A stretch of 64,000 bases of DNA. Source: a virus (taxonomy: Duplodnaviria > Heunggongvirae > Uroviricota > Caudoviricetes). Under the pieces are notes generated by a model, which saw only the letters and a list, made by a program, of their open reading frames with translations, was not told where the DNA came from and did not search any database. The position numbers were made by a program, and so were the translations under genes. The stretch spans positions 77,860 through 141,859 of the IMG/VR virus record IMGVR_UViG_3300028797_000096; one strand, written 5' to 3'. Position 1 is the first letter of the stretch; the number at the start of each line of letters is the position of its first letter. Below are positions 35,240 through 51,611 of this stretch, piece by piece.

Positions 35240-37441
35240 ATGAAGATCTTGTTAGTTTTAAGAGGTATTCCAGGTTCTGGTAAATCTACTTGGATTAAAG
35301 AAAGAGATTTAGAAGCATACGTTTTAAGTACCGATGCTATTCGTTTATTATACTCTTCTCCAGAACAAACTATAAAAGGTAAATATATTGTTTCTAATAA
35401 ACATGATAAACATGTTTGGGCTTTCTTTAAAGAAAGATTAGAAGATCGTATGAAGAATGGTGATTTTACTATATTAGATGCTACACATACCAAAGAATCT
35501 TATTTAAAAGATTATAAAAAATTGTGTAAAGAATATAATTATCGTATGATTATTGTAGATTTTTCTTCTGTTGATTTAGATACTTGTAAAGAAAGAAATT
35601 TAATGCGGGAAAGTTATAAACAAGTACCAAATGAAGTATTAGATCGTATGTATAATCAAATAAAAGTACCATTACAAAATAAATATGAAATTTATGATTA
35701 TAATGAATTTCCTAATTTAGATAATTTTGTATATAAAATAGATGGTAATAAATGGAAAGAAGTAGTAATATTTGGTGATATACATAATTGTTATGATCCA
35801 ATAAGAAAATACTTTGAAGCATCTCCAGAATCTGATCAAAAATTATACATCTTTATTGGTGATTATTTTGATCGTGGTATTCAAGCTAAAGAAGTATTAC
35901 AGTTTTGTTTAGACCACTGTGAAAAAGAAAACTTTGTATTTTTACAAGGTAATCATGAAATATGGGCTAAGAATTATGTAAGAGATGGTGAAGCTGCTAA
36001 AATGACACCAGATTTCAAAGATTCTTTAGTACAGTTTGGTGAATTAAAAGATCAATTAAGTAAGTTTACTAGAAGATTAAAAGTAGCAGTAAATGTTAGT
36101 TTTTACTGTCAGGGTATTTATCATAGATTTTCTATTACTCATGGTGGATTAAGCTTTCCTTTAGATTATCGTACTTCTGCAATACAATGTATTAAAGGAG
36201 TAGGTGATTATGATGATTTAGATGAAGTAGAAAAAGCTTTTGGTAGTATTAATGAAAAAATGACTATGCAAGTATTAAACTACAAATGCTATAATGTACA
36301 TGGTCATCGTAATGTAACTAATAATCCAATTATAAGTGCAGACGGCTATAGTATTAACTTAGAAGGTAAAGTTGAATTTGGTGGTAATTTAAGAATAGTT
36401 GAATTATCTTATACAGACAAAATGAATATATTACCAATAGAAATACCAAATACAATTTATAACAAAGATATACAAATTCCTTCTAGTAGACATGATAATC
36501 CAATTATTCAACAATTGGATAGTAGTAGTTTAATACATAAAAAAGATTTGGGTGATGGTATAGTTTCTTATAACTTTAGTAGAGAAGCTTTTTATAGCCA
36601 AAAATGGAATAAATTAACTACTACAGCGAGAGGCTTATTTGTTGATACTAAGACAAATCAAGTAGTTGCTAGATCTTATCCTAAATTTTTTGAAGCAGAA
36701 CAGCATCCATCTACACAATGGAGAAATTTAGAAAAGACATTAGTATTTCCAGTAACTGCTTATTTGAAAGAAAATGGCTTTTTAGGTATTGTATCTGTAT
36801 ATAATGATCAATTATTTATTGCATCTAAATCTACAAATCAAGGCGAATATAAAGAAAACTTTGAGCGTATATTAAAAACACATACAAATATTGATAAATT
36901 AAAAGAATATTTAAAAGCTAATAATTGTTCCGCTATATTTGAATGTGTAGATCCACATAATGATCCGCATATTATTGAATATGTCAATGAAAAAGTTGTA
37001 TTATTAGATATAGTACAGAATGATTTTACAGATACATTTAAATCTTATGATGATGTATGGGAATTAGCTAAACAAATAGGATGTAAACCAAAAGAAATGT
37101 GTAAAGTATTTAATACCTTTGCTGAATTAAAATCTTTTATTGAAGCATTTGATAAAGATTTTCATGAAGAAATAGAAGGTTTTGTATTTGTAGATCAGAA
37201 TAATTTTATGATTAAATATAAAACACCTTTCTATAAATTCTGGAAAGACATGCGTAGAATGAAAGAATATATTAATAAAGGTGATAATGATAAATATTTT
37301 GCCGCTAAAAATGTAAAGTCTGAACAAACAAATTTGATGAATGATTTGTTTAGTTTTATGACAGGTATTAAAAATGGTGGTATTGATTTAGATACATTAT
37401 CCATTATTGATATTAAAAACAGTTATTATAATAAGGATTAA
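35240..37441 (+). CDS. Pnkp-like polynucleotide kinase / calcineurin-type phosphoesterase with C-terminal ligase-like domain
   Basis: P-loop LRGIPGSGKST; metallophosphoesterase motifs GDIHN, GDYFDRG, GNHE; C-terminal third has ligase-like elements (ARGLFVD, EGFVFV, KYKTPFYK) reminiscent of bacterial Pnkp RNA-repair enzymes. Confidence 0.65.
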   Translation: MKILLVLRGIPGSGKSTWIKERDLEAYVLSTDAIRLLYSSPEQTIKGKYIVSNKHDKHVWAFFKERLEDRMKNGDFTILDATHTKESYLKDYKKLCKEYNYRMIIVDFSSVDLDTCKERNLMRESYKQVPNEVLDRMYNQIKVPLQNKYEIYDYNEFPNLDNFVYKIDGNKWKEVVIFGDIHNCYDPIRKYFEASPESDQKLYIFIGDYFDRGIQAKEVLQFCLDHCEKENFVFLQGNHEIWAKNYVRDGEAAKMTPDFKDSLVQFGELKDQLSKFTRRLKVAVNVSFYCQGIYHRFSITHGGLSFPLDYRTSAIQCIKGVGDYDDLDEVEKAFGSINEKMTMQVLNYKCYNVHGHRNVTNNPIISADGYSINLEGKVEFGGNLRIVELSYTDKMNILPIEIPNTIYNKDIQIPSSRHDNPIIQQLDSSSLIHKKDLGDGIVSYNFSREAFYSQKWNKLTTTARGLFVDTKTNQVVARSYPKFFEAEQHPSTQWRNLEKTLVFPVTAYLKENGFLGIVSVYNDQLFIASKSTNQGEYKENFERILKTHTNIDKLKEYLKANNCSAIFECVDPHNDPHIIEYVNEKVVLLDIVQNDFTDTFKSYDDVWELAKQIGCKPKEMCKVFNTFAELKSFIEAFDKDFHEEIEGFVFVDQNNFMIKYKTPFYKFWKDMRRMKEYINKGDNDKYFAAKNVKSEQTNLMNDLFSFMTGIKNGGIDLDTLSIIDIKNSYYNKD

Positions 37442-43131: not shown

Positions 43132-43614
43132 ATGGCAATAAGAGAAATAGTTAATCAAGATAATGAAATTCTTCGTAAAATTGCAGATCCAATAATAGAA
43201 TCTGATAGGGTTGATATTTCTCTTGAAAATTTAATTTATGATATGGTTCAAACTGTAAAAAGTGTAGATGGTGCGGGTTTAGCAGCACCTCAAGTAGGAA
43301 TATCTAAAAGAGTTATTGTTGTAAAAGATATAAATAAAGAAGGAAATTTTTTCGAAATGATTAACCCTGAAATTATTTGGACATCTTTTGATAAGCAATA
43401 TGAATTTGAAGGTTGTTTAAGTGTATTAGGAAAAGATGGTAAACCTATTCATGAAAGAGTAGAGAGATATAAAAGGATAAGAGTTAAATGGGAAGATGTT
43501 GATGGCAATTTACATGAAGAATTAATCAAAGATCCGTTAACGAGTAGAATTATACAGCATGAAACTGATCATTTAAATGGAAAGTTGTTTACAGACTATT
43601 TACAAAAGGAGTAA
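43132..43614 (+). CDS. def: peptide deformylase
   Basis: all three PDF motifs: GAGLAAPQVG, EGCLSV, QHETDHLNG. Confidence 0.85.
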   Translation: MAIREIVNQDNEILRKIADPIIESDRVDISLENLIYDMVQTVKSVDGAGLAAPQVGISKRVIVVKDINKEGNFFEMINPEIIWTSFDKQYEFEGCLSVLGKDGKPIHERVERYKRIRVKWEDVDGNLHEELIKDPLTSRIIQHETDHLNGKLFTDYLQKE

Positions 43615-44876: not shown

Positions 44877-45084
44877 AGCAAATGCATATGCAGCGGAAAG
44901 ATGTAAAACCCCATTGTTTAAACATGAAGATAGAAGATGGCATGTTGATTATGTTGAAAACGATAAATGGACAGAGAAATCTTTTATGGACCCAGAAAAA
45001 GCATATGAATTTTATTTGAGTATTTTTCATAAATTAGAAAAAGAATATACAAGAAAAAATAGAGAAGGTAAAGGTAGTAGATAA
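44863..45084 (+). CDS. hypothetical protein
   Basis: 73-aa ORF. Confidence 0.45.
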   Translation: MANIKANAYAAERCKTPLFKHEDRRWHVDYVENDKWTEKSFMDPEKAYEFYLSIFHKLEKEYTRKNREGKGSR

Positions 45085-45482
45085 TGGATAAAATACCAGC
45101 AATTTTTTGTGATATAGATGGTGTAGTTACGCATAAATTTGCTATTCCTAATTATGATCATTTTGGTGAACCTAATGAAAAGATGATATCTGTAATCGAA
45201 CAGCTTGGTCAAAAGTTTACTATCGTATTCATTACAGGTCGTTGGGCTATGGGTCAAGAAAAAGTAGAAAAATTACTTAATGAACTATTTCCAAATATTA
45301 AAAAGAAAGTATTTTGTAAACCACATGATTACCCCGGTACTACTGCTGAATTTAAACTCGATATGATTAAAAAGTTAGAAGAAAAAGGCTATGAGTTTAA
45401 TTTAGGCTTAGATGATCACAGCGCAGTAGTTGGTTTAATGCATAATCATGGTATATTTATGGCACAAGTATTATCAGATTAA
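45084..45482 (+). CDS. HAD-superfamily phosphatase
   Basis: motif I FCDIDGVVT (DxDGV) at N-terminus. Confidence 0.55.
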   Translation: MDKIPAIFCDIDGVVTHKFAIPNYDHFGEPNEKMISVIEQLGQKFTIVFITGRWAMGQEKVEKLLNELFPNIKKKVFCKPHDYPGTTAEFKLDMIKKLEEKGYEFNLGLDDHSAVVGLMHNHGIFMAQVLSD

Positions 45483-45527: not shown

Positions 45528-45641
45528 ATAATTATTGTAAAAAAATAAGAAAGGGTTTATACGCTTTCCTCTGTTTTAATAAGGAGTTTTTGTGAATCGG
45601 TTAAATTCTCAATTTTAAATAAAATATTGAGGAGGTATAAA

Positions 45642-46127
45642 ATGAACATGGTTAATCCATCTGCGAATAAAATTATTTTGGGTAGTTATCCAGGTTTGGT
45701 ATCTAATTTACGTAGTGAGTATTATAGTCATCCAAATAATAGTTTTTGGACATTATTAAATATTCCTACTAAAGATAAAGATGATAACAAAATTTCTTAT
45801 ATAGAAAAAATAAAAAGGTTAGCAGAAAAAGATATTGGTGTATGGGATGTATTATCTGCTTGTTCTAGATTAGATAAAAATAATAAAGAAACAAGTCTAG
45901 ATAAAAATATATCTTTACAACAATATAATAATTTAGAAAAACTAATTAATAAAGATCTATATTTTAATGGACAAACTGCTTTTAAAGAATTTTCTAAAAT
46001 CGTAAAACAACAAAATTTATCATTTGATTTAGATAAATTACAAAAACATGTTTTACCTTCTAGCAGTGGTTTGTATAGAAATAATCTAGATAAAAGAAAA
46101 GAAATATGGAATAACTTTTTTAATTAG
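45642..46127 (+). CDS. hypothetical protein
   Basis: ATG 45642 with SD gaggagg preferred; ORF track start 45627 is TTG inside the SD. Confidence 0.5.
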   Translation: MNMVNPSANKIILGSYPGLVSNLRSEYYSHPNNSFWTLLNIPTKDKDDNKISYIEKIKRLAEKDIGVWDVLSACSRLDKNNKETSLDKNISLQQYNNLEKLINKDLYFNGQTAFKEFSKIVKQQNLSFDLDKLQKHVLPSSSGLYRNNLDKRKEIWNNFFN

Positions 46128-46135
46128 TAACTAAT

Positions 46136-46172
46136 GGGCGAGCGCCGGAGTCGGAGAGCCGGGGCAGACTGT
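46136..46172 (+). tRNA. tRNA-Tyr(GUA) exon 1 (intron-interrupted)
   Basis: GGGCGAG acceptor, CCGG D-stem, GCAGA anticodon stem, loop CUGU|; near-identical to E. coli tRNA-Tyr core (GCAGACTGTAAATCTGC) once spliced to exon 2. Confidence 0.65.
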
Positions 46173-46352
46173 AAAAAATTGCAGCCTTATATAGTAATAT
46201 ATAAGTGAAAATTTGGCTAAGTCGGGGAAAGCTAAGTTAAATGATATGCTAATCCCGAGCTAGGAGAAATCCGAGTGTAGAGACTTTACACCAGACATCT
46301 TATTGAGATGAAGAGAAAGTCCAGACTACAATGTGAAAACAATGTAGCAATG
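46173..46352 (+). ncRNA. group I intron (about 180 nt, ORF-less) in tRNA-Tyr anticodon loop
   Basis: inserted after U35; internal guide GCAG pairs with exon end CUGU with a U-G wobble at the splice site; shares GTGTAGAGACT and AAGTCCAGACTACAA blocks with the tRNA-Leu intron; ends in G before exon 2. Confidence 0.6.
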
Positions 46353-46402
46353 AAATCTGTTGTCTTATGACTGAGTTGGTTCGACTCCAACCTCTCCCAC
46401 CA
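46353..46402 (+). tRNA. tRNA-Tyr(GUA) exon 2
   Basis: AAA-TCTGT anticodon 3' half, 14-nt variable arm, GTTGG-TTCGACT-CCAAC T-arm, CTCTCCC-A-CCA. Confidence 0.65.
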
Positions 46403-47594
46403 CAAATGAAATCCTAGAACAACTGCTATGACATCTTAGTAATGTTATCAGCTCTAGGTAAAGATACAAGGGGATGAGTTAAATTCGACAGTATATTTTT
46501 ACTGGACTCGGTTTCAATACCGATATCTCCACCATAAAGTTTGGTGATATTTAGTTTATTACGAATAGAACATTTGGTACTAGACCAAAAGAAGCATAAG
46601 GGACATTGCAATATCACCGATACAGTTTACTAAATAATTACAAAAGATTATTTAATTGACTGGCATGATAAATGAACCAGCGAACGATAACTATAAATTA
46701 AGTGCAATAGCTGCTTGATTTAAATAAAGTTATCAATCGGAGCTGGGTAGAGCTTGGCAACAGAATCTACCAAATTTATTTGCGGGCTTAGCTCAAAAAG
46801 TATAGAAAAATATTTGGCTCGTGGGAATGCATAGTGTGTTCACCTGACTGTCACTCAGGAAATCAGATGGGGGCGGTACCCATACGAGTCGCCATAAAGT
46901 TTGGGTAAGTAGTGTGAAGTATAGCACACAGCACACTGGGCTGAAGTGTTAGGGGAAGTGCCTAACCAATAATCCCACCCTCAATTTAGCTGAGACTGCA
47001 GTAGTAGGCTAAATCCCTTGACTAACGTTCCTGGTCAGAACGATCGTCACTAGTCGATAGTAGTCGGAGTTTAATGCAGGTGTGACTTCGTTAGGTTAGG
47101 CCAACTAAATTCTGCATTTTTAATGTTTATACTTATTTCGAGTGAAATAGTCTCGAATGTATTGGTGTTCGACAATACAGCTTGCTGTAACAAGTCCAAG
47201 GGAAAGAATAGGAAACCTGAAAGAGCTCTAGTAAGGTGGAATTGGAAGTATAAATGTTTACTGTTGATATACTTTTATGTATATTAATTTCGGGTTTGAT
47301 AGGCCGGTTAGCTTGTACTCTTACAAGTCAGTGATCTAAATTCCGGGTCTTACTATCATTCTCCGCTTAAATTCCTATTAGCATTAGCTAGTATGGATTG
47401 CCAGAATGTAGAAATGCATTTTTGGTTTTTGGGGTAAAGTTTCAACTACTGATTGGACACCTCAATCCGAACATCACGGAGTTCAGCTAGTGATGCTCGA
47501 CTGAACATATTTCTGGGCCTTGACCAATGGTCGAGGATTTGCCGAGGCTTTTGGTGTTATTGAGCCATCGTAGAGAATCAAAACACCTTTATAT

Positions 47595-47669
47595 TGGCGT
47601 GTAGCTCAACGGCAGAGCTTTCGGCTGTTAACCGAATGGTTGTCCGTTCGAATCGGACCACGCCAGCCA
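47595..47669 (+). tRNA. tRNA-Asn(GUU)
   Basis: TGGCGTG/CACGCCA acceptor, anticodon loop CTGTTAA, GTCCG-TTCGAAT-CGGAC T-arm, encoded CCA. Confidence 0.85.
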
Positions 47670-47676
47670 TGTTTCT

Positions 47677-47751
47677 GGCCCCATCGTCTAATGGTTAGGA
47701 CACCGCCCTTTCAAGGCGAGAATCCCGGTTCAAATCCGAGTGGGGCTGCCA
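47677..47751 (+). tRNA. tRNA-Glu(UUC)
   Basis: GGCCCCA acceptor, anticodon loop CTTTCAA, GGTTCAAATCC T-loop, CCA. Confidence 0.75.
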
Positions 47752-48124: not shown

Positions 48125-48616
48125 ATGAAAGCAATTTGTCCAAAATGTGGAATAGAATTTGAAAATGATACAAATCGAAAATTTTGTTCAAGAAAATGTG
48201 TAAATAGTCGTAATATTTCACAAGAAACAAAAAAGAAAATTTCAAATAAAATGAAAGCCAGATATCAAGAACCTGAATACAGAAAACAAATTTTGAATTT
48301 AAATAGAAAATTAGGTAATCATTTACATGAAGAAAAATTAAAAAGATTTGTAAAAGCAAAAAATGGGCAAATTTTAGATATTACATATGGGGAATTAGAA
48401 GAATACCAAAAAACTCATTTGGTATGTGAAATTTGTGGTAAAACTGAAATTGCTTCACATAACATAATAAAAAAGATATATCGAAATTATGTCGTGATCA
48501 TGATCATAAAACTTCTAAATTTCGTGGATTATTATGTAGTAATTGTAACAGAAAGTTAGGTTGGTTTGAAAATTTTAAAGATGAAATTTTCAAATATTTG
48601 AATAAAAAGCACCAGT
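48125..48616 (+). pseudogene. NUMOD3 + Endonuclease-VII/HNH-type homing endonuclease with frameshift
   Basis: N-terminal NUMOD3-like SQETKKKISNKMK; frame 2 reads ...LVCEICGKTEIASHNIIKK then must shift to frame 1 (DISKLCRDHDHKTSKFRGLLCSNCNRKLGWF) at the A6 run 48468-48473 to restore the CxxC...DHDH...RGLLC..CN motif. Confidence 0.6.
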
Positions 48617-48682
48617 AGTTTAATAGTAGAATGTAACCTTGCCAAGGTTAAGACCTCGGAGCATAACCGGGTTGGTGCACCA
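48609..48682 (+). tRNA. tRNA-Gly(GCC)-like, atypical arms
   Basis: GCACCAG/TTGGTGC acceptor, perfect anticodon stem TAACC/GGTTA with loop TTGCCAA, CCA; D-arm weak and T-loop AGCATAA non-canonical; overlaps the stop of the HNH pseudogene. Confidence 0.45.
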
Positions 48683-48888: not shown

Positions 48889-48923
48889 TGGCCCTGTGGC
48901 GGAATTGGTAGACGCTGCAGACT
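48889..48923 (+). tRNA. tRNA-Leu(UAA) exon 1 (intron-interrupted)
   Basis: GGCCCTG acceptor, GGCGGAATTGGTAGACGC D-arm, GCAGA anticodon stem, loop CUU| ; intron inserted after U34 as in cyanobacterial/plastid tRNA-Leu(UAA). Confidence 0.65.
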
Positions 48924-49628
48924 TAGACGAAAATGAGTGTATCATAATTTATTGAAAAAGTAGTTCTATATCATAAGGAGTTAATCCTATGAAAAATAGA
49001 ATTACAGATCAAGAAATGATTGATATTATCATTAAGTCTCAAACAATGGCTTTAGCTGCTAAAAGATGTGGTATGGCATATACAACATTTATTAGGCATG
49101 CTAAAAGATTGGGTATTTATAAACCTAATCAAGGCGGAAAAGGTACTGAGAAAAAAAGATCTGCTAAAATATCTATAGAAGAAATTTTAGCAGGAAAGTA
49201 TCCTCAGTATCAAACATATAAATTAAAAACAAGATTAATAGATGAAGGATATAAAGAAGATAAGTGTGAGAAATGTGGGTGGTGTGAAAAATTAAAAAAT
49301 AGCAAATATACTCCATGCGAATTACATCATATCGATGGAAATCCTGAAAATCATTTATTATCTAATTTAATTATATTGTGTCCAAATTGCCATTCCTTAA
49401 CTAAATCTTATAGGTTTAGAAGAGGTAAGACTAATGAGCAACAAGGTAGGAAACTTCTCGATTGAATGCTGTCAAATTCGGTGAAAGGTTTTATAATCCT
49501 AACGCCGAGCGAAGCCTAGAAATAGGAACGTGTAGAGACTTAACGGCAGCCACCTAAGTAGAAATATATGGTGAAGACAAAGTCCAGACTACAAACAAGA
49601 AATTGGTAGTGAAAGCTATAGTAGTAAG
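48924..49628 (+). ncRNA. group I intron (Azoarcus / cyanobacterial tRNA-Leu type) carrying an HNH ORF
   Basis: 705 nt; guide GAGT pairs with exon end ACUU (U-G at splice site); core blocks TGTCAAATTCGGTGAAA and GTGTAGAGACTTAACGGCAGCCACCTAAG match the Azoarcus pre-tRNA-Ile intron recalled from memory; terminal G at 49628. Confidence 0.65.
48989..49465 (+). CDS. intron-encoded HNH homing endonuclease
   Basis: CEKCGWCEKL...CELHHIDGNPENHLLSNLIILCPNCH (HNH with two Cys pairs); lies wholly inside the tRNA-Leu group I intron; SD aaggag. Confidence 0.7.
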   Translation: MKNRITDQEMIDIIIKSQTMALAAKRCGMAYTTFIRHAKRLGIYKPNQGGKGTEKKRSAKISIEEILAGKYPQYQTYKLKTRLIDEGYKEDKCEKCGWCEKLKNSKYTPCELHHIDGNPENHLLSNLIILCPNCHSLTKSYRFRRGKTNEQQGRKLLD

Positions 49629-49682
49629 AAAATCTGTTGACAGTTAAATGTCGTACCGGTTCGATTCCGGTCAGGGCCACCA
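49629..49682 (+). tRNA. tRNA-Leu(UAA) exon 2
   Basis: AAAA-TCTGT, variable arm TGACAGTTAAATGTCGT, ACCGG-TTCGATT-CCGGT, CAGGGCC-A-CCA pairing exactly with exon 1 acceptor. Confidence 0.65.
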
Positions 49683-51377: not shown

Positions 51378-51611
51378 ATGAAAGATATATGTACTGAAAT
51401 TATAAAAGAGTTAGAAAAAATGGGATATACTGCATTTCAAATAACTCCAGAGATGTCTATTCATGAAGATTTAGGTTTAGATTCATTAGATACTATTGAA
51501 TTGGTTGCTAAATTAGAAGAAAAATTTGATATTCGTATAAAAGATGATGATTTAGTAGATGTAAAAACGATTCAAGATATTGTAGATATTGCTAATAAAT
51601 ATTTAAAATGA
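51378..51611 (+). CDS. acyl carrier protein
   Basis: 77 aa acidic; phosphopantetheine attachment motif DLGLDSLDTIELVAKLEEKFDIRI. Confidence 0.8.
   Translation: MKDICTEIIKELEKMGYTAFQITPEMSIHEDLGLDSLDTIELVAKLEEKFDIRIKDDDLVDVKTIQDIVDIANKYLK

What the first reader, a model, noticed from the sequence alone, without database searches (positions are those of the whole stretch)
46136..46402. tRNA-Tyr(GUA) interrupted by a compact (about 180 nt) group I intron in the anticodon loop
Exon 1 (GGGCGAG..GCAGA-CUGU) and exon 2 (AAA-UCUGU..CCA) rebuild a tRNA almost identical to bacterial tRNA-Tyr (GCAGACUGUAAAUCUGC). The intervening 180 nt start with an internal guide (GCAG) that pairs with the exon end through a U-G wobble. 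They share GTGTAGAGACT and AAGTCCAGACTACAA blocks with the tRNA-Leu intron downstream and end in G. If real, at 180 nt it would be among the smallest group I introns known. There is one C-U mismatch in the acceptor stem.
Basis: partly seen in the sequence, partly recalled or inferred. Interest (0 to 1): 0.75.

Follow-up and report, generated by a model that had tools for sequence, protein, structure and literature searches.

The report
Tiny self-splicing intron in phage tRNA-Tyr
A large phage carries its only tyrosine tRNA gene split in the anticodon loop by a genuine but unusually small (180-base) group I ribozyme intron, a compact relative of introns that sit at the same spot in tRNA-Tyr genes of gut Clostridia.

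Summary
The observation and the interpretation both hold. Joining 46136-46172 to 46353-46402 gives an 87-nt tRNA-Tyr(GUA) that ARAGORN accepts. The 180 nt between them (46173-46352) score 64.8 bits against Rfam Intron_gpI (gathering score 50).

- **Splice sites:** the intron follows U35, which pairs with G in P1, and it ends in G. The insertion site is 35/36.
- **Structure:** P1 to P9 can all be drawn. They are backed by compensatory changes in three alignments of 34, 44 and 12 relatives. No shuffle out of 500 reached the observed values, and shifted-register controls paired at only 29-44% against 82-96%.
- **Relatives:** metagenomic tRNA arrays hold tRNA-Tyr introns of 179-189 nt. At least 40 gut Clostridia MAGs hold longer versions of 215-248 nt, with an extra P1 extension and a second P9 hairpin.
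- **Prior knowledge:** the bacterial class "Tyr.4Ug" was already catalogued in 2020, and a 2026 paper describes the 35/36 site. This is therefore a new, phage-borne, minimal member of a known kind.
- **Size:** it is below the published range for bacterial tRNA introns (184-894 nt) and below Azoarcus (205 nt), but relatives reach 179 nt.

Actual splicing is inferred, not shown.

The parts
46136..46172 (+). tRNA-Tyr(GUA) exon 1 (37 nt): acceptor 5' strand, D arm, anticodon stem 5' strand, and loop C32 U33 G34 U35
   Evidence: In-silico splicing followed by ARAGORN. This stretch is identical in metagenome contig L478.
46173..46352 (+). Group I intron, 180 nt, inserted at tRNA position 35/36, with no ORF
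   Evidence: RF00028 scores 64.8 bits over 46162-46345. A profile built from the family alignment matches at E 8e-34 (nhmmer). Covariation.
46169..46184 (+). P1: exon CUGU plus intron AA (46169-46174) pair with the internal guide UUGCAG (46179-46184). The 5' splice site follows U46172, which pairs with G46181. The UU of the guide can pair instead with the first AA of exon 2 (P10).
   Evidence: Read from the sequence, with the Rfam alignment. The U·G pair is present in 44 of 44 Tyr introns and 12 of 12 compact introns. P1 changes together with the exon in the tRNA-Ser introns.
46186..46205 (+). P2, 8 bp, with a GUAA tetraloop (L2, 46194-46197)
   Evidence: 100% paired in the 44 Tyr introns; 7 of 8 pairs show changes on both sides. 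Recovered by the MFE fold.
46212..46216 (+). P3 5' strand (UUUGG), pairing with 46291-46295
   Evidence: 5 of 5 pairs show compensatory changes and 98.8-100% of cells are paired.
46222..46258 (+). P4 (46222-46227 with 46253-46258) enclosing P5 (46231-46238 with 46243-46249). P5 carries a GCUAAG...UAUGC motif that resembles the 11-nt GAAA-tetraloop receptor.
   Evidence: P4 is 99.5-100% paired with compensatory changes. The receptor resemblance is my reading of the sequence against the textbook CCUAAG...UAUGG motif; I did not test it.
46259..46276 (+). P6 with a GAAA loop (46266-46269) and one internal A·G mismatch
   Evidence: 99.6% paired in the Tyr clade, with 4 pairs changed on both sides.
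46280..46285 (+). P7 5' strand, G-A(bulge)-GACU. G46282 pairs with C46321 at the position of the guanosine-binding pair.
   Evidence: Read from the sequence. P7 is invariant in all homologues, but my search pattern fixed it, so it gives no covariation information.
46291..46295 (+). P3 3' strand (CCAGA)
46296..46310 (+). P8, a short 5-6 bp hairpin
   Evidence: 94-100% paired, with 5 of 6 pairs changed on both sides in the compact set. Recovered by the MFE fold.
46311..46322 (+). J8/7 (AAGAGAA) and the P7 3' strand (AGUCC, 46318-46322)
   Evidence: Conserved block AAGTCCAGACTACAA; Rfam alignment.
46326..46352 (+). P9, a single 9-position hairpin with a GAAA loop (46335-46338), then CAAU and the terminal guanosine G46352
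   Evidence: 97.9% paired in the compact set. The terminal G precedes exon 2 in all relatives.
46353..46402 (+). tRNA-Tyr exon 2 (50 nt): A36 A37 A38, anticodon stem 3' strand, long variable arm, T arm, acceptor 3' strand, A73 and an encoded CCA
   Evidence: ARAGORN on the spliced product. Colinear with intron-less tRNA-Tyr genes in other viral contigs.

Best explanation
The window comes from a large tailed phage with a T4-like capsid gene. Its tRNA array holds a single tRNA-Tyr(GUA) gene, and a 180-nt group I intron without an ORF interrupts it between anticodon positions 35 and 36.

**Proposed mechanism.** These steps are inferred from the established group I mechanism; none was shown here.
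1. In the precursor, the guide UUGCAG pairs with the exon end CUGU to form P1, with U35·G marking the 5' splice site.
2. The core folds as two stacked domains (P4-P6 and P3-P7-P8-P9). The GNRA loops L2, L6 and L9 are available for long-range contacts.
3. A free guanosine bound at P7 attacks after U35.
4. The terminal G46352 replaces it in the same site. The freed U35 3'-OH attacks after that G, and the exons are ligated into an 87-nt tRNA-Tyr that already ends in CCA.

**Origin (inferred from the comparisons).** The intron is a trimmed member of a mobile family. The family occupies the same site in tRNA-Tyr genes of gut Clostridia and also sits in many other tRNA genes of phage tRNA arrays. 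Compared with the bacterial version it has lost a P1 extension hairpin and a second P9 hairpin. It is most likely a tolerated selfish element. It probably spread by homing (its relatives carry HNH endonucleases) or by recombination between phage and host tRNA-Tyr genes.
For: **The element itself**
- RF00028 scores 64.8 bits against a gathering score of 50 over 46162-46345.
- The spliced exons give tRNA-Tyr(GTA).
- No other tRNA-Tyr is found in the window.
- The MFE fold independently recovers P1, P2, P4, P6, P8 and P9, with z = -3.7.

**Covariation**
- 34 viral family members: 81.7% of cells paired, 33 pairs changed on both sides, 0/500 shuffles reach this, shifted registers give 29-40%.
- 44 tRNA-Tyr introns: 88.0% paired, with P1, P2, P4 and P8 at 100%. 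The U·G pair is present in 44 of 44.
- 12 compact introns: 96.5% paired, 28 of 52 pairs compensatory.

**Relatives**
- Compact tRNA-Tyr introns of 179-189 nt sit at the same site in other contigs. One (L478) has exons identical to the window's while its intron has diverged.
- 40 Clostridia-MAG tRNA-Tyr genes carry the intron at the same site, 215-248 nt long.
- Intron-less tRNA-Tyr genes in other viral contigs run contiguously across the predicted junction.
- Homologous introns lie in dense tRNA arrays that have no second tRNA-Tyr in the DNA held.

**Context**
- Phage identity: Gp23 major capsid, tail-fibre repeats, Pnkp/RNA ligase.
- A sister intron in the same window's tRNA-Leu(UAA) carries an HNH ORF.
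Against: - No RNA data: neither splicing nor expression of the gene is shown.
- P7 and the flanking junctions are invariant only because my search pattern fixed them, so the guanosine-binding helix has no covariation support.
- The intron has very short P8 and P9 and an A+U-rich P2. Autonomous folding at physiological Mg2+ is therefore not guaranteed.
- The Rfam hit is lost by the filters when the whole window is scanned.
- The acceptor stem has a C4·U69 mismatch. It recurs in relatives, as C·U or C·A, which argues against decay.
- No homing endonuclease lies in or next to this intron. The upstream ORF is UDG-like, so how it moves is an inference.
Confidence: 0.88

Rival explanations
1. It is a genuine group I intron, but it does not splice on its own. 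At 180 nt, with minimal peripheral elements, it needs a host or phage protein (an RNA chaperone or a tRNA-synthetase-like cofactor), so tRNA-Tyr maturation depends on that factor.
For: P8 and P9 are minimal, and the P1 extension and second P9 hairpin of the bacterial orthologues are missing. [quoted passage not shown]
Against: The comparably small Azoarcus intron (205 nt) splices robustly by itself (PMC13168695). Three GNRA loops and a receptor-like P5 motif are kept, as expected for a fold that stabilises itself. The core is well conserved.
Confidence: 0.15
2. It is a decaying, inactive intron, which would make this a tRNA-Tyr pseudogene. The phage would then rely on host tRNA-Tyr.
For: There is a C·U mismatch in the acceptor stem, no intron ORF, and no expression data.
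Against: Every core helix is intact. Substitutions among relatives of 179-189 nt are compensatory. L478 has identical exons while its intron has diverged, and the acceptor stems of other relatives co-vary. U-1 and the terminal G are kept in all 44 Tyr introns. The mismatch at 4:69 recurs in the window, L478, L483 and L014, which suggests it is tolerated or selected.
Confidence: 0.04
3. The phage has co-opted the intron. It might make tRNA-Tyr supply conditional, for example on GTP level or on infection stage. Or it might keep the precursor's anticodon loop, or the gene, out of reach of host nucleases that target tRNA-Tyr or its gene.
For: The intron-containing gene is the only tRNA-Tyr in the window and in related arrays. 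The same island encodes tRNA-repair enzymes, a Pnkp/RNA ligase and a PNKP-type phosphatase. A host defence that cleaves tRNA-Tyr has been described, Septu (abstract of PMC13096335).
Against: Nothing here separates function from selfish persistence. The same family sits in many different tRNAs and often carries homing endonucleases, and many phages carry intron-less tRNA-Tyr genes. That is the signature of a mobile parasite.
Confidence: 0.06
4. The match to tRNA halves and group I motifs arises by chance in A+T-rich non-coding DNA.
For: Two whole-window Rfam scans did not report the intron.
Against: The bit score is above the curated threshold. Homologues occupy the identical tRNA site in dozens of independent contigs. 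Covariation exceeds every shuffled and shifted control.
Confidence: 0.01

Closest known systems
Bacterial 'Tyr.4Ug' group I introns, meaning tRNA-Tyr(GUA) interrupted at 35/36 (Williams 2020, bioRxiv 10.1101/2020.01.27.920355; Nakagawa et al. 2026, PMC13011429)
   Same: Same host gene and same insertion site, CUGU|AAA. The same P1 and guide, CUGUAA...UUGCAG, appear in the seed sequence Mba143.Tyr.4Ug. U-1 and the terminal G are the same. Tyr(GUA) at 35/36 is listed for a Patescibacteria genome.
   Different: This one is phage-borne. It is 180 nt, against 205 nt for the seed example and 215-248 nt for the Clostridia-MAG orthologues I found. Its core sequence belongs to the GUAGAGACU...AAGUCCAGACUA family and differs from the Mba143 core. 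Nakagawa et al. class nearly all Patescibacteria tRNA introns as subgroup IA.
[quoted passage not shown]
   Same: A compact intron in a tRNA anticodon loop, without an ORF, with P2 to P9 only and GNRA loops. From memory, the Azoarcus core shares motifs such as AAUUCGG.GAAA, CCGAGC and GUGUAGAGACU. Size and IC3 assignment come from PMC3895272 and PMC13168695.
   Different: A different tRNA and a different site (36/37). The window's intron is 25 nt shorter, with shorter P8 and P9.
Classical cyanobacterial/plastid-type tRNA-Leu(UAA) intron at 34/35 ('Leu.3Ug')
   Same: The family is homologous: nhmmer with the Tyr intron finds the viral Leu.3Ug introns at E 1e-5 to 1e-9. The core blocks are shared with the window's own tRNA-Leu intron.
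   Different: The site is one base upstream. The viral Leu introns are 192-208 nt and have a two-hairpin P9. The window's Leu copy carries an HNH ORF and is 704 nt long.
Phage group I introns in protein-coding genes (T4 td/nrdB/sunY, Twort, SPO1)
   Same: Self-splicing group I introns carried by phages, often with homing endonucleases.
   Different: Those interrupt ORFs. The 2014 review states that all phage introns known then were in protein-coding genes, despite the many phage tRNA genes (PMC3984707). This one, and more than 117 IMG/VR contigs, place the family in viral tRNA genes.

Membership tests
Group I intron (Rfam RF00028) | Covariance-model score at or above the curated gathering threshold | tested here: met
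   64.8 bits against 50, covering model positions 1-253, at 46162-46345. The 64-kb scans do not report it, an effect of the speed filters.
Group I intron (Rfam RF00028) | The 5' splice site follows a U that forms a U·G wobble pair with the internal guide in P1 | tested here: met
   U46172·G46181. The U·G pair is present in 44 of 44 Tyr introns and 12 of 12 compact introns, and P1 changes together with the exon sequence in the tRNA-Ser introns.
Group I intron (Rfam RF00028) | The intron ends in a guanosine immediately before the 3' exon | tested here: met
   G46352 precedes AAAUCUG. This is the only U/G boundary pair that rebuilds a 7-nt anticodon loop, CUGUAAA. It is conserved in all relatives.
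Group I intron (Rfam RF00028) | Conserved core helices P3, P4, P6 and P8, supported by compensatory changes | tested here: met
   P3 98.8-100%, P4 99.5-100%, P6 66-99.6% and P8 94-100% paired, each with several pairs changed on both sides. No shuffle out of 500 matches, and shifted registers give 29-44%.
Group I intron (Rfam RF00028) | A P7 pseudoknot helix with a bulged base and a G-C guanosine-binding pair | tested here: inconclusive
   The sequence allows G46280-C46322, an A46281 bulge, then G46282-C46321, A-U, C-G and U-A. The helix is invariant in every homologue because the search pattern fixed it, so there is no covariation evidence.
Group I intron (Rfam RF00028) | Guanosine-dependent two-step transesterification that yields ligated exons | not testable with these tools
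   This needs in vitro splicing or RNA sequencing.
Subgroup IC3 (bacterial tRNA introns) | A P2-to-P9 architecture without large peripheral domains, and homology to the classical tRNA-Leu, tRNA-Ile and tRNA-Arg introns | tested here: inconclusive
   The architecture fits. Homology to viral Leu.3Ug introns is significant. I ran no formal subgroup classifier and made no comparison with reference IC3 sequences.
Bacterial-type tRNA-Tyr | Cloverleaf with a GUA anticodon, a long variable arm and A73 | tested here: met
   ARAGORN calls the spliced 87-mer tRNA-Tyr(gta), with a variable stem-loop and discriminator A before an encoded CCA. There is one C4·U69 mismatch.
Tyr.4Ug class (intron at 35/36 of tRNA-Tyr) | The intron lies between U35 and A36, with CUGU pairing to a GCAG guide | tested here: met
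   The P1 and guide match those of the seed sequence Mba143.Tyr.4Ug and of 40 MAG orthologues.
Mobile intron with a homing endonuclease | An endonuclease ORF inside the intron or beside it | tested here: not met
   The 180 nt hold no ORF. The upstream ORF 45627-46127 is UDG-like. Relatives in other tRNAs do carry HNH or other ORFs in P5, P6 or P1.

The most novel reading that the evidence does not exclude
The anticodon-loop introns in phage tRNA arrays, including this one, may be more than passengers. In this reading the phage exploits them. They could gate the supply of the one phage tRNA-Tyr on guanosine/GTP level or on infection stage. Or they could shield the gene or the precursor from host nucleases that target tRNA-Tyr or other GUN-anticodon tRNAs. 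The shielding idea would fit an island that also encodes tRNA-repair enzymes and a tmRNA-like gene.
Probability: 0.06. Interest if true: 0.8.

Novelty: new member of a known kind. Interest (0 to 1): 0.45.

Why it matters
1. **Annotation.** Standard tRNA finders and default Rfam scans miss this gene. The phage's tRNA set then looks as if it lacks Tyr and Leu. The same blind spot probably affects many phage genomes: more than 117 IMG/VR contigs carry the family, in tRNA genes for Leu, Asn, Tyr, Ser, Lys, Gln, Ala, Ile and Arg.

2. **Phage biology.** This contradicts the review statement that phage group I introns sit only in protein-coding genes. It also points to traffic of one intron family between gut Clostridia tRNA-Tyr genes and phage tRNA arrays.

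3. **Ribozyme work.** The 179-189-nt clade is smaller than Azoarcus (205 nt) and lies below the published range for bacterial tRNA introns (184-894 nt). If it self-splices, it offers a natural minimal group I scaffold, with many natural variants, for structural and engineering work.

Tried and rejected
- **Whole-window Rfam scans**, at the gathering and at the E-value threshold, did not report the intron. Only a 1.8-kb scan did, so the miss comes from the filters.
- **ARAGORN with intron search** on the unspliced DNA found nothing.
- **Searches of the INPHARED phage collection** with window pieces found no match, by megablast and by tblastn, so no cultured relative was identified.
- **A 16-base P1 pattern scan of IMG/VR** returned mostly chance hits. 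Only L013, L014 and L025 were real.
- **My first in-silico splicing screen** produced many spurious alternative tRNA calls. I therefore added a P1-pairing filter and an anticodon-position filter.
- **Homing endonuclease next to the intron:** rejected, since the upstream ORF is UDG-like.
- **Literature searches** for phage tRNA group I introns found no report. That library lacks most subscription journals.
- **A scan for the contiguous tmRNA-like domain** in IMG/VR found nothing.
- **I did not build my own covariance model.** MAFFT alignments already gave clear covariation, and nhmmer with the family profile found only the two introns in the window.

Full report
**1. The observation**

- Exon 1 is 46136-46172 and ends GCAGA-CUGU. 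Exon 2 is 46353-46402, begins AAA-UCUGU and ends CCA.
- Joined, they form an 87-nt sequence that ARAGORN calls tRNA-Tyr(GTA). It has a long variable arm and discriminator A. It has one C4·U69 mismatch in the acceptor stem.
- The unspliced DNA is not recognised as a tRNA by ARAGORN, even with intron search, or by the Rfam tRNA model.
- The 180 nt between the exons start after a U and end in G. This is the only boundary pair that restores a 7-nt loop, CUGUAAA. The insertion site is therefore between U35 and A36.
The second copy of each lies in a tRNA-Leu intron.

**2. It is a group I intron**

- A sensitive Rfam scan of 45900-47700 gives Intron_gpI (RF00028) at 46162-46345. The score is 64.8 bits against a gathering score of 50, and the match spans the whole model.
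- Both 64-kb scans missed it. This is a filter effect and is worth noting for anyone annotating such genomes.
- From the Rfam alignment and the sequence I mapped the following helices:
  - P1, CUGU|AA with UUGCAG, including U46172·G46181
  - P2, with a GUAA loop
  - P3
  - P4
  - P5, with a GCUAAG...UAUGC motif that looks like a GAAA-tetraloop receptor
  - P6, with a GAAA loop
  - the P7 pseudoknot, with a bulged A and a G-C pair at the guanosine-binding position
  - a short P8
  - a single P9 hairpin with a GAAA loop
  - the terminal G46352
- The UU of the guide can pair with the first AA of exon 2, which would form P10.
- An unconstrained MFE fold recovers P1, P2, P4, P6, P8 and P9. It is more stable than all 200 shuffles (z = -3.7).

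**3. Comparative evidence**

In-silico splicing places these introns in anticodon loops:
- tRNA-Leu(UAA), the majority, 192-208 nt
- Asn(GUU), Tyr(GUA), Ser(UGA), Lys(UUU), Gln(UUG), Ala, Ile and Arg
- one tRNA with a CUA anticodon

Contig L014 carries a tRNA-Tyr gene plus intron that is 87% identical to the window's. L013 and L025 carry a 189-nt version.

*Metagenomes.* A metagenome scan found further compact tRNA-Tyr introns of 179, 179, 179, 181, 182, 184 and 189 nt. In L478 the exons are identical to the window's while the intron differs at several positions.

Most are animal- and human-gut Clostridia or Bacilli MAGs. Forty of them hold tRNA-Tyr(GUA) genes with an orthologous intron at exactly the same site, 215-248 nt long. 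The alignment shows that the window's intron lacks a P1 extension hairpin of about 25 nt and the second P9 hairpin.

*Pair counts.* I projected my structure onto three MAFFT alignments. None of them was fitted to the structure.

| Alignment | Cells paired | Pairs changed on both sides | Shuffles reaching this | Shifted registers |
|---|---|---|---|---|
| 34 viral introns | 81.7% | 33 | 0/500 | 29-40% |
| 44 Tyr introns | 88.0% | 26 | 0/500 | 32-44% |
| 12 compact introns | 96.5% | 28 of 52 | 0/500 | 31-40% |

- In the 44 Tyr introns, P1, P2, P4 and P8 are 100% paired, and the U·G pair is present in all 44.
- In the compact set, P1 changes together with the exon in the tRNA-Ser introns.
- P7 never varies, but my search pattern fixed it, so it says nothing either way.

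*Intron-less genes.* More than 120 viral contigs hold uninterrupted tRNA-Tyr genes containing exactly the predicted ligated junction. The closest of these aligns contiguously across the junction with the window's spliced tRNA at 88-90% identity.

**4. Context**

- The window encodes a T4-type major capsid protein (PF07068), tail-fibre repeats, HNH endonucleases, a Pnkp/RNA-ligase fusion, a PNKP-type phosphatase and a peptide deformylase. It also holds about 19 co-oriented tRNA genes.
- Contigs encoding the identical RNA ligase reach 136 kb and more. This is a large phage. Its hosts are probably gut Firmicutes. That inference rests on where the bacterial orthologues of the intron occur.
- No second tRNA-Tyr is present in the window, or in the tRNA arrays of L013, L014 and L025. 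The phage's tRNA-Tyr therefore depends on removal of the intron.
- The intron has no ORF, and the gene upstream is UDG-like, not an endonuclease.
- The sister intron in tRNA-Leu(UAA) (gene 48890-49682, intron 48925-49628, 704 nt) carries an HNH ORF. Many relatives carry ORFs in P5, P6 or P1. That is the signature of a mobile family.

**5. Mechanism**

The best-supported reading is ordinary group I self-splicing:
1. P1 presents U35.
2. An exogenous guanosine bound at P7 attacks there.
3. The terminal G then occupies the same site.
4. The exons are ligated into mature tRNA-Tyr with an encoded CCA.

What is shown: the sequence, the structural conservation, and the colinearity with intron-less genes. 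What is inferred: catalysis, independence from proteins, and the route of spread. Rivals, each with my confidence:
- dependence on a protein cofactor, 0.15 (this one is not exclusive of the main reading)
- a decayed pseudogene, 0.04
- functional co-option, 0.06
- chance, 0.01

**6. Comparison with what is known**

[quoted passage not shown] Williams (2020) expanded them from 4 to 21 gene/site classes. The seed alignment of that preprint includes Mba143.Tyr.4Ug. That sequence is 205 nt with the same CUGUAA...UUGCAG P1.
- Nakagawa et al. (2026) highlighted the 35/36 site in Asn, Asp and one Tyr gene of Patescibacteria. They reported lengths of 184-894 bp for 333 bacterial tRNA introns.
- The Azoarcus IC3 intron is 205 nt.
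- The gene and site class is therefore already known. Three things are new here:
  - the phage setting, since the 2014 review says that all phage introns then known were in protein-coding genes
  - the link to abundant Clostridia tRNA-Tyr orthologues
  - the compact 179-189-nt architecture
- I found no paper describing group I introns in phage tRNA genes. The library searched is incomplete.

**7. Verdict**

The finding is real and correctly interpreted. It is a new, minimal, phage-borne member of a known kind. Interest is moderate. It matters for tRNA annotation in phages, for the ecology of mobile introns shared between phages and gut Firmicutes, and as a candidate minimal natural ribozyme. 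It is not a conceptual surprise.

Noticed in passing
window 48890-49682: A second split tRNA, tRNA-Leu(UAA), is interrupted at 34/35 (CUU|AAAA) by a 704-nt intron of the same family (48925-49628). An HNH endonuclease ORF (48989-49465) lies near the 5' end, and the ribozyme core is at 49447-49634. The spliced product is called tRNA-Leu(taa).
   Followed up: partly
window 46440-46809: A tmRNA-like gene is missed by default tools. At a relaxed threshold ARAGORN calls a permuted tmRNA with the tag EPANDNYKLSAIAA*. The canonical 5' end (GGGGAUGAGUUAAAUUCGAC) and the T arm plus AUCUCCACCA 3' end lie next to each other (46470-46534, Rfam tmRNA 34.5 bits, G3·U70 present). They form a complete 65-nt tRNA-like domain, and the tag-coding part lies about 150 nt downstream of the CCA. 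I could not resolve how, or whether, the two parts work together. An IMG/VR scan for this arrangement found nothing.
   Followed up: partly
window 46816-46894: A non-canonical tRNA-Asp(GUC) is found only at a relaxed ARAGORN threshold. Its T loop is GGCGGUA, with no T-Psi-C motif, and its D loop is unusual. The 93 nt at 46802-46894 are 100% identical in viral contig L014 (889-981), far better conserved than the flanks.
   Followed up: partly
window 46900-47590: About 700 nt hold no ORF of note (the longest is 54 aa) and have no Rfam match. They look richer in G+C than the surrounding genome, though I did not compute this for the stretch itself. They lie between the tRNA-Asp-like gene and tRNA-Asn. 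This may be another structured RNA.
   Followed up: no
window 48609-48679: A tRNA-Gly(GCC) is seen by the Rfam tRNA model (49.2 bits) and by relaxed ARAGORN, but not by default ARAGORN.
   Followed up: partly
window 35240-37441, 45084-45482, 43132-43614, 51378-51611: A translation and RNA-repair island surrounds the tRNA array. It includes a Pnkp (kinase-phosphatase) fused to a T4-type RNA ligase (PHROG E 6e-175), a separate PNKP-type HAD phosphatase, a peptide deformylase and an acyl-carrier-protein-like ORF.
   Followed up: partly
L001-L117 (IMG/VR) and L235-L354 (GTDB genomes): The same intron core is very common. The introns sit in tRNA genes for Leu, Asn, Tyr, Ser, Lys, Gln, Ala, Ile, Arg and Met. 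In viral contigs several carry endonuclease ORFs in P5, P6 or P1 (for example L011, L012, L027, L042, L015, L035).
   Followed up: partly
L082:7447-7660: A 197-nt family intron interrupts a viral tRNA with anticodon CUA (loop CUCUAAA), a candidate amber-suppressor tRNA. L086 also has an uninterrupted CUA tRNA next to an intron-containing tRNA-Ser.
   Followed up: no
L014:411-622 (minus strand): A second 183-nt copy, 83% identical to the window's Tyr intron, follows a 5' exon resembling the window's tRNA-Phe 5' half but ending GGGACUGU. I could not recognise a matching 3' exon. This may be an ectopic or degenerate insertion, or a tRNA I failed to reconstruct.
   Followed up: partly
window 46139 with 46395; L478, L483, L014: The mismatch at acceptor-stem position 4:69 recurs in this tRNA-Tyr lineage, as C·U in the window, L478 and L483 and as C·A in L014/L482. 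Other relatives (L479, L480) have perfect stems. It may be a tolerated or selected feature, not damage.
   Followed up: no
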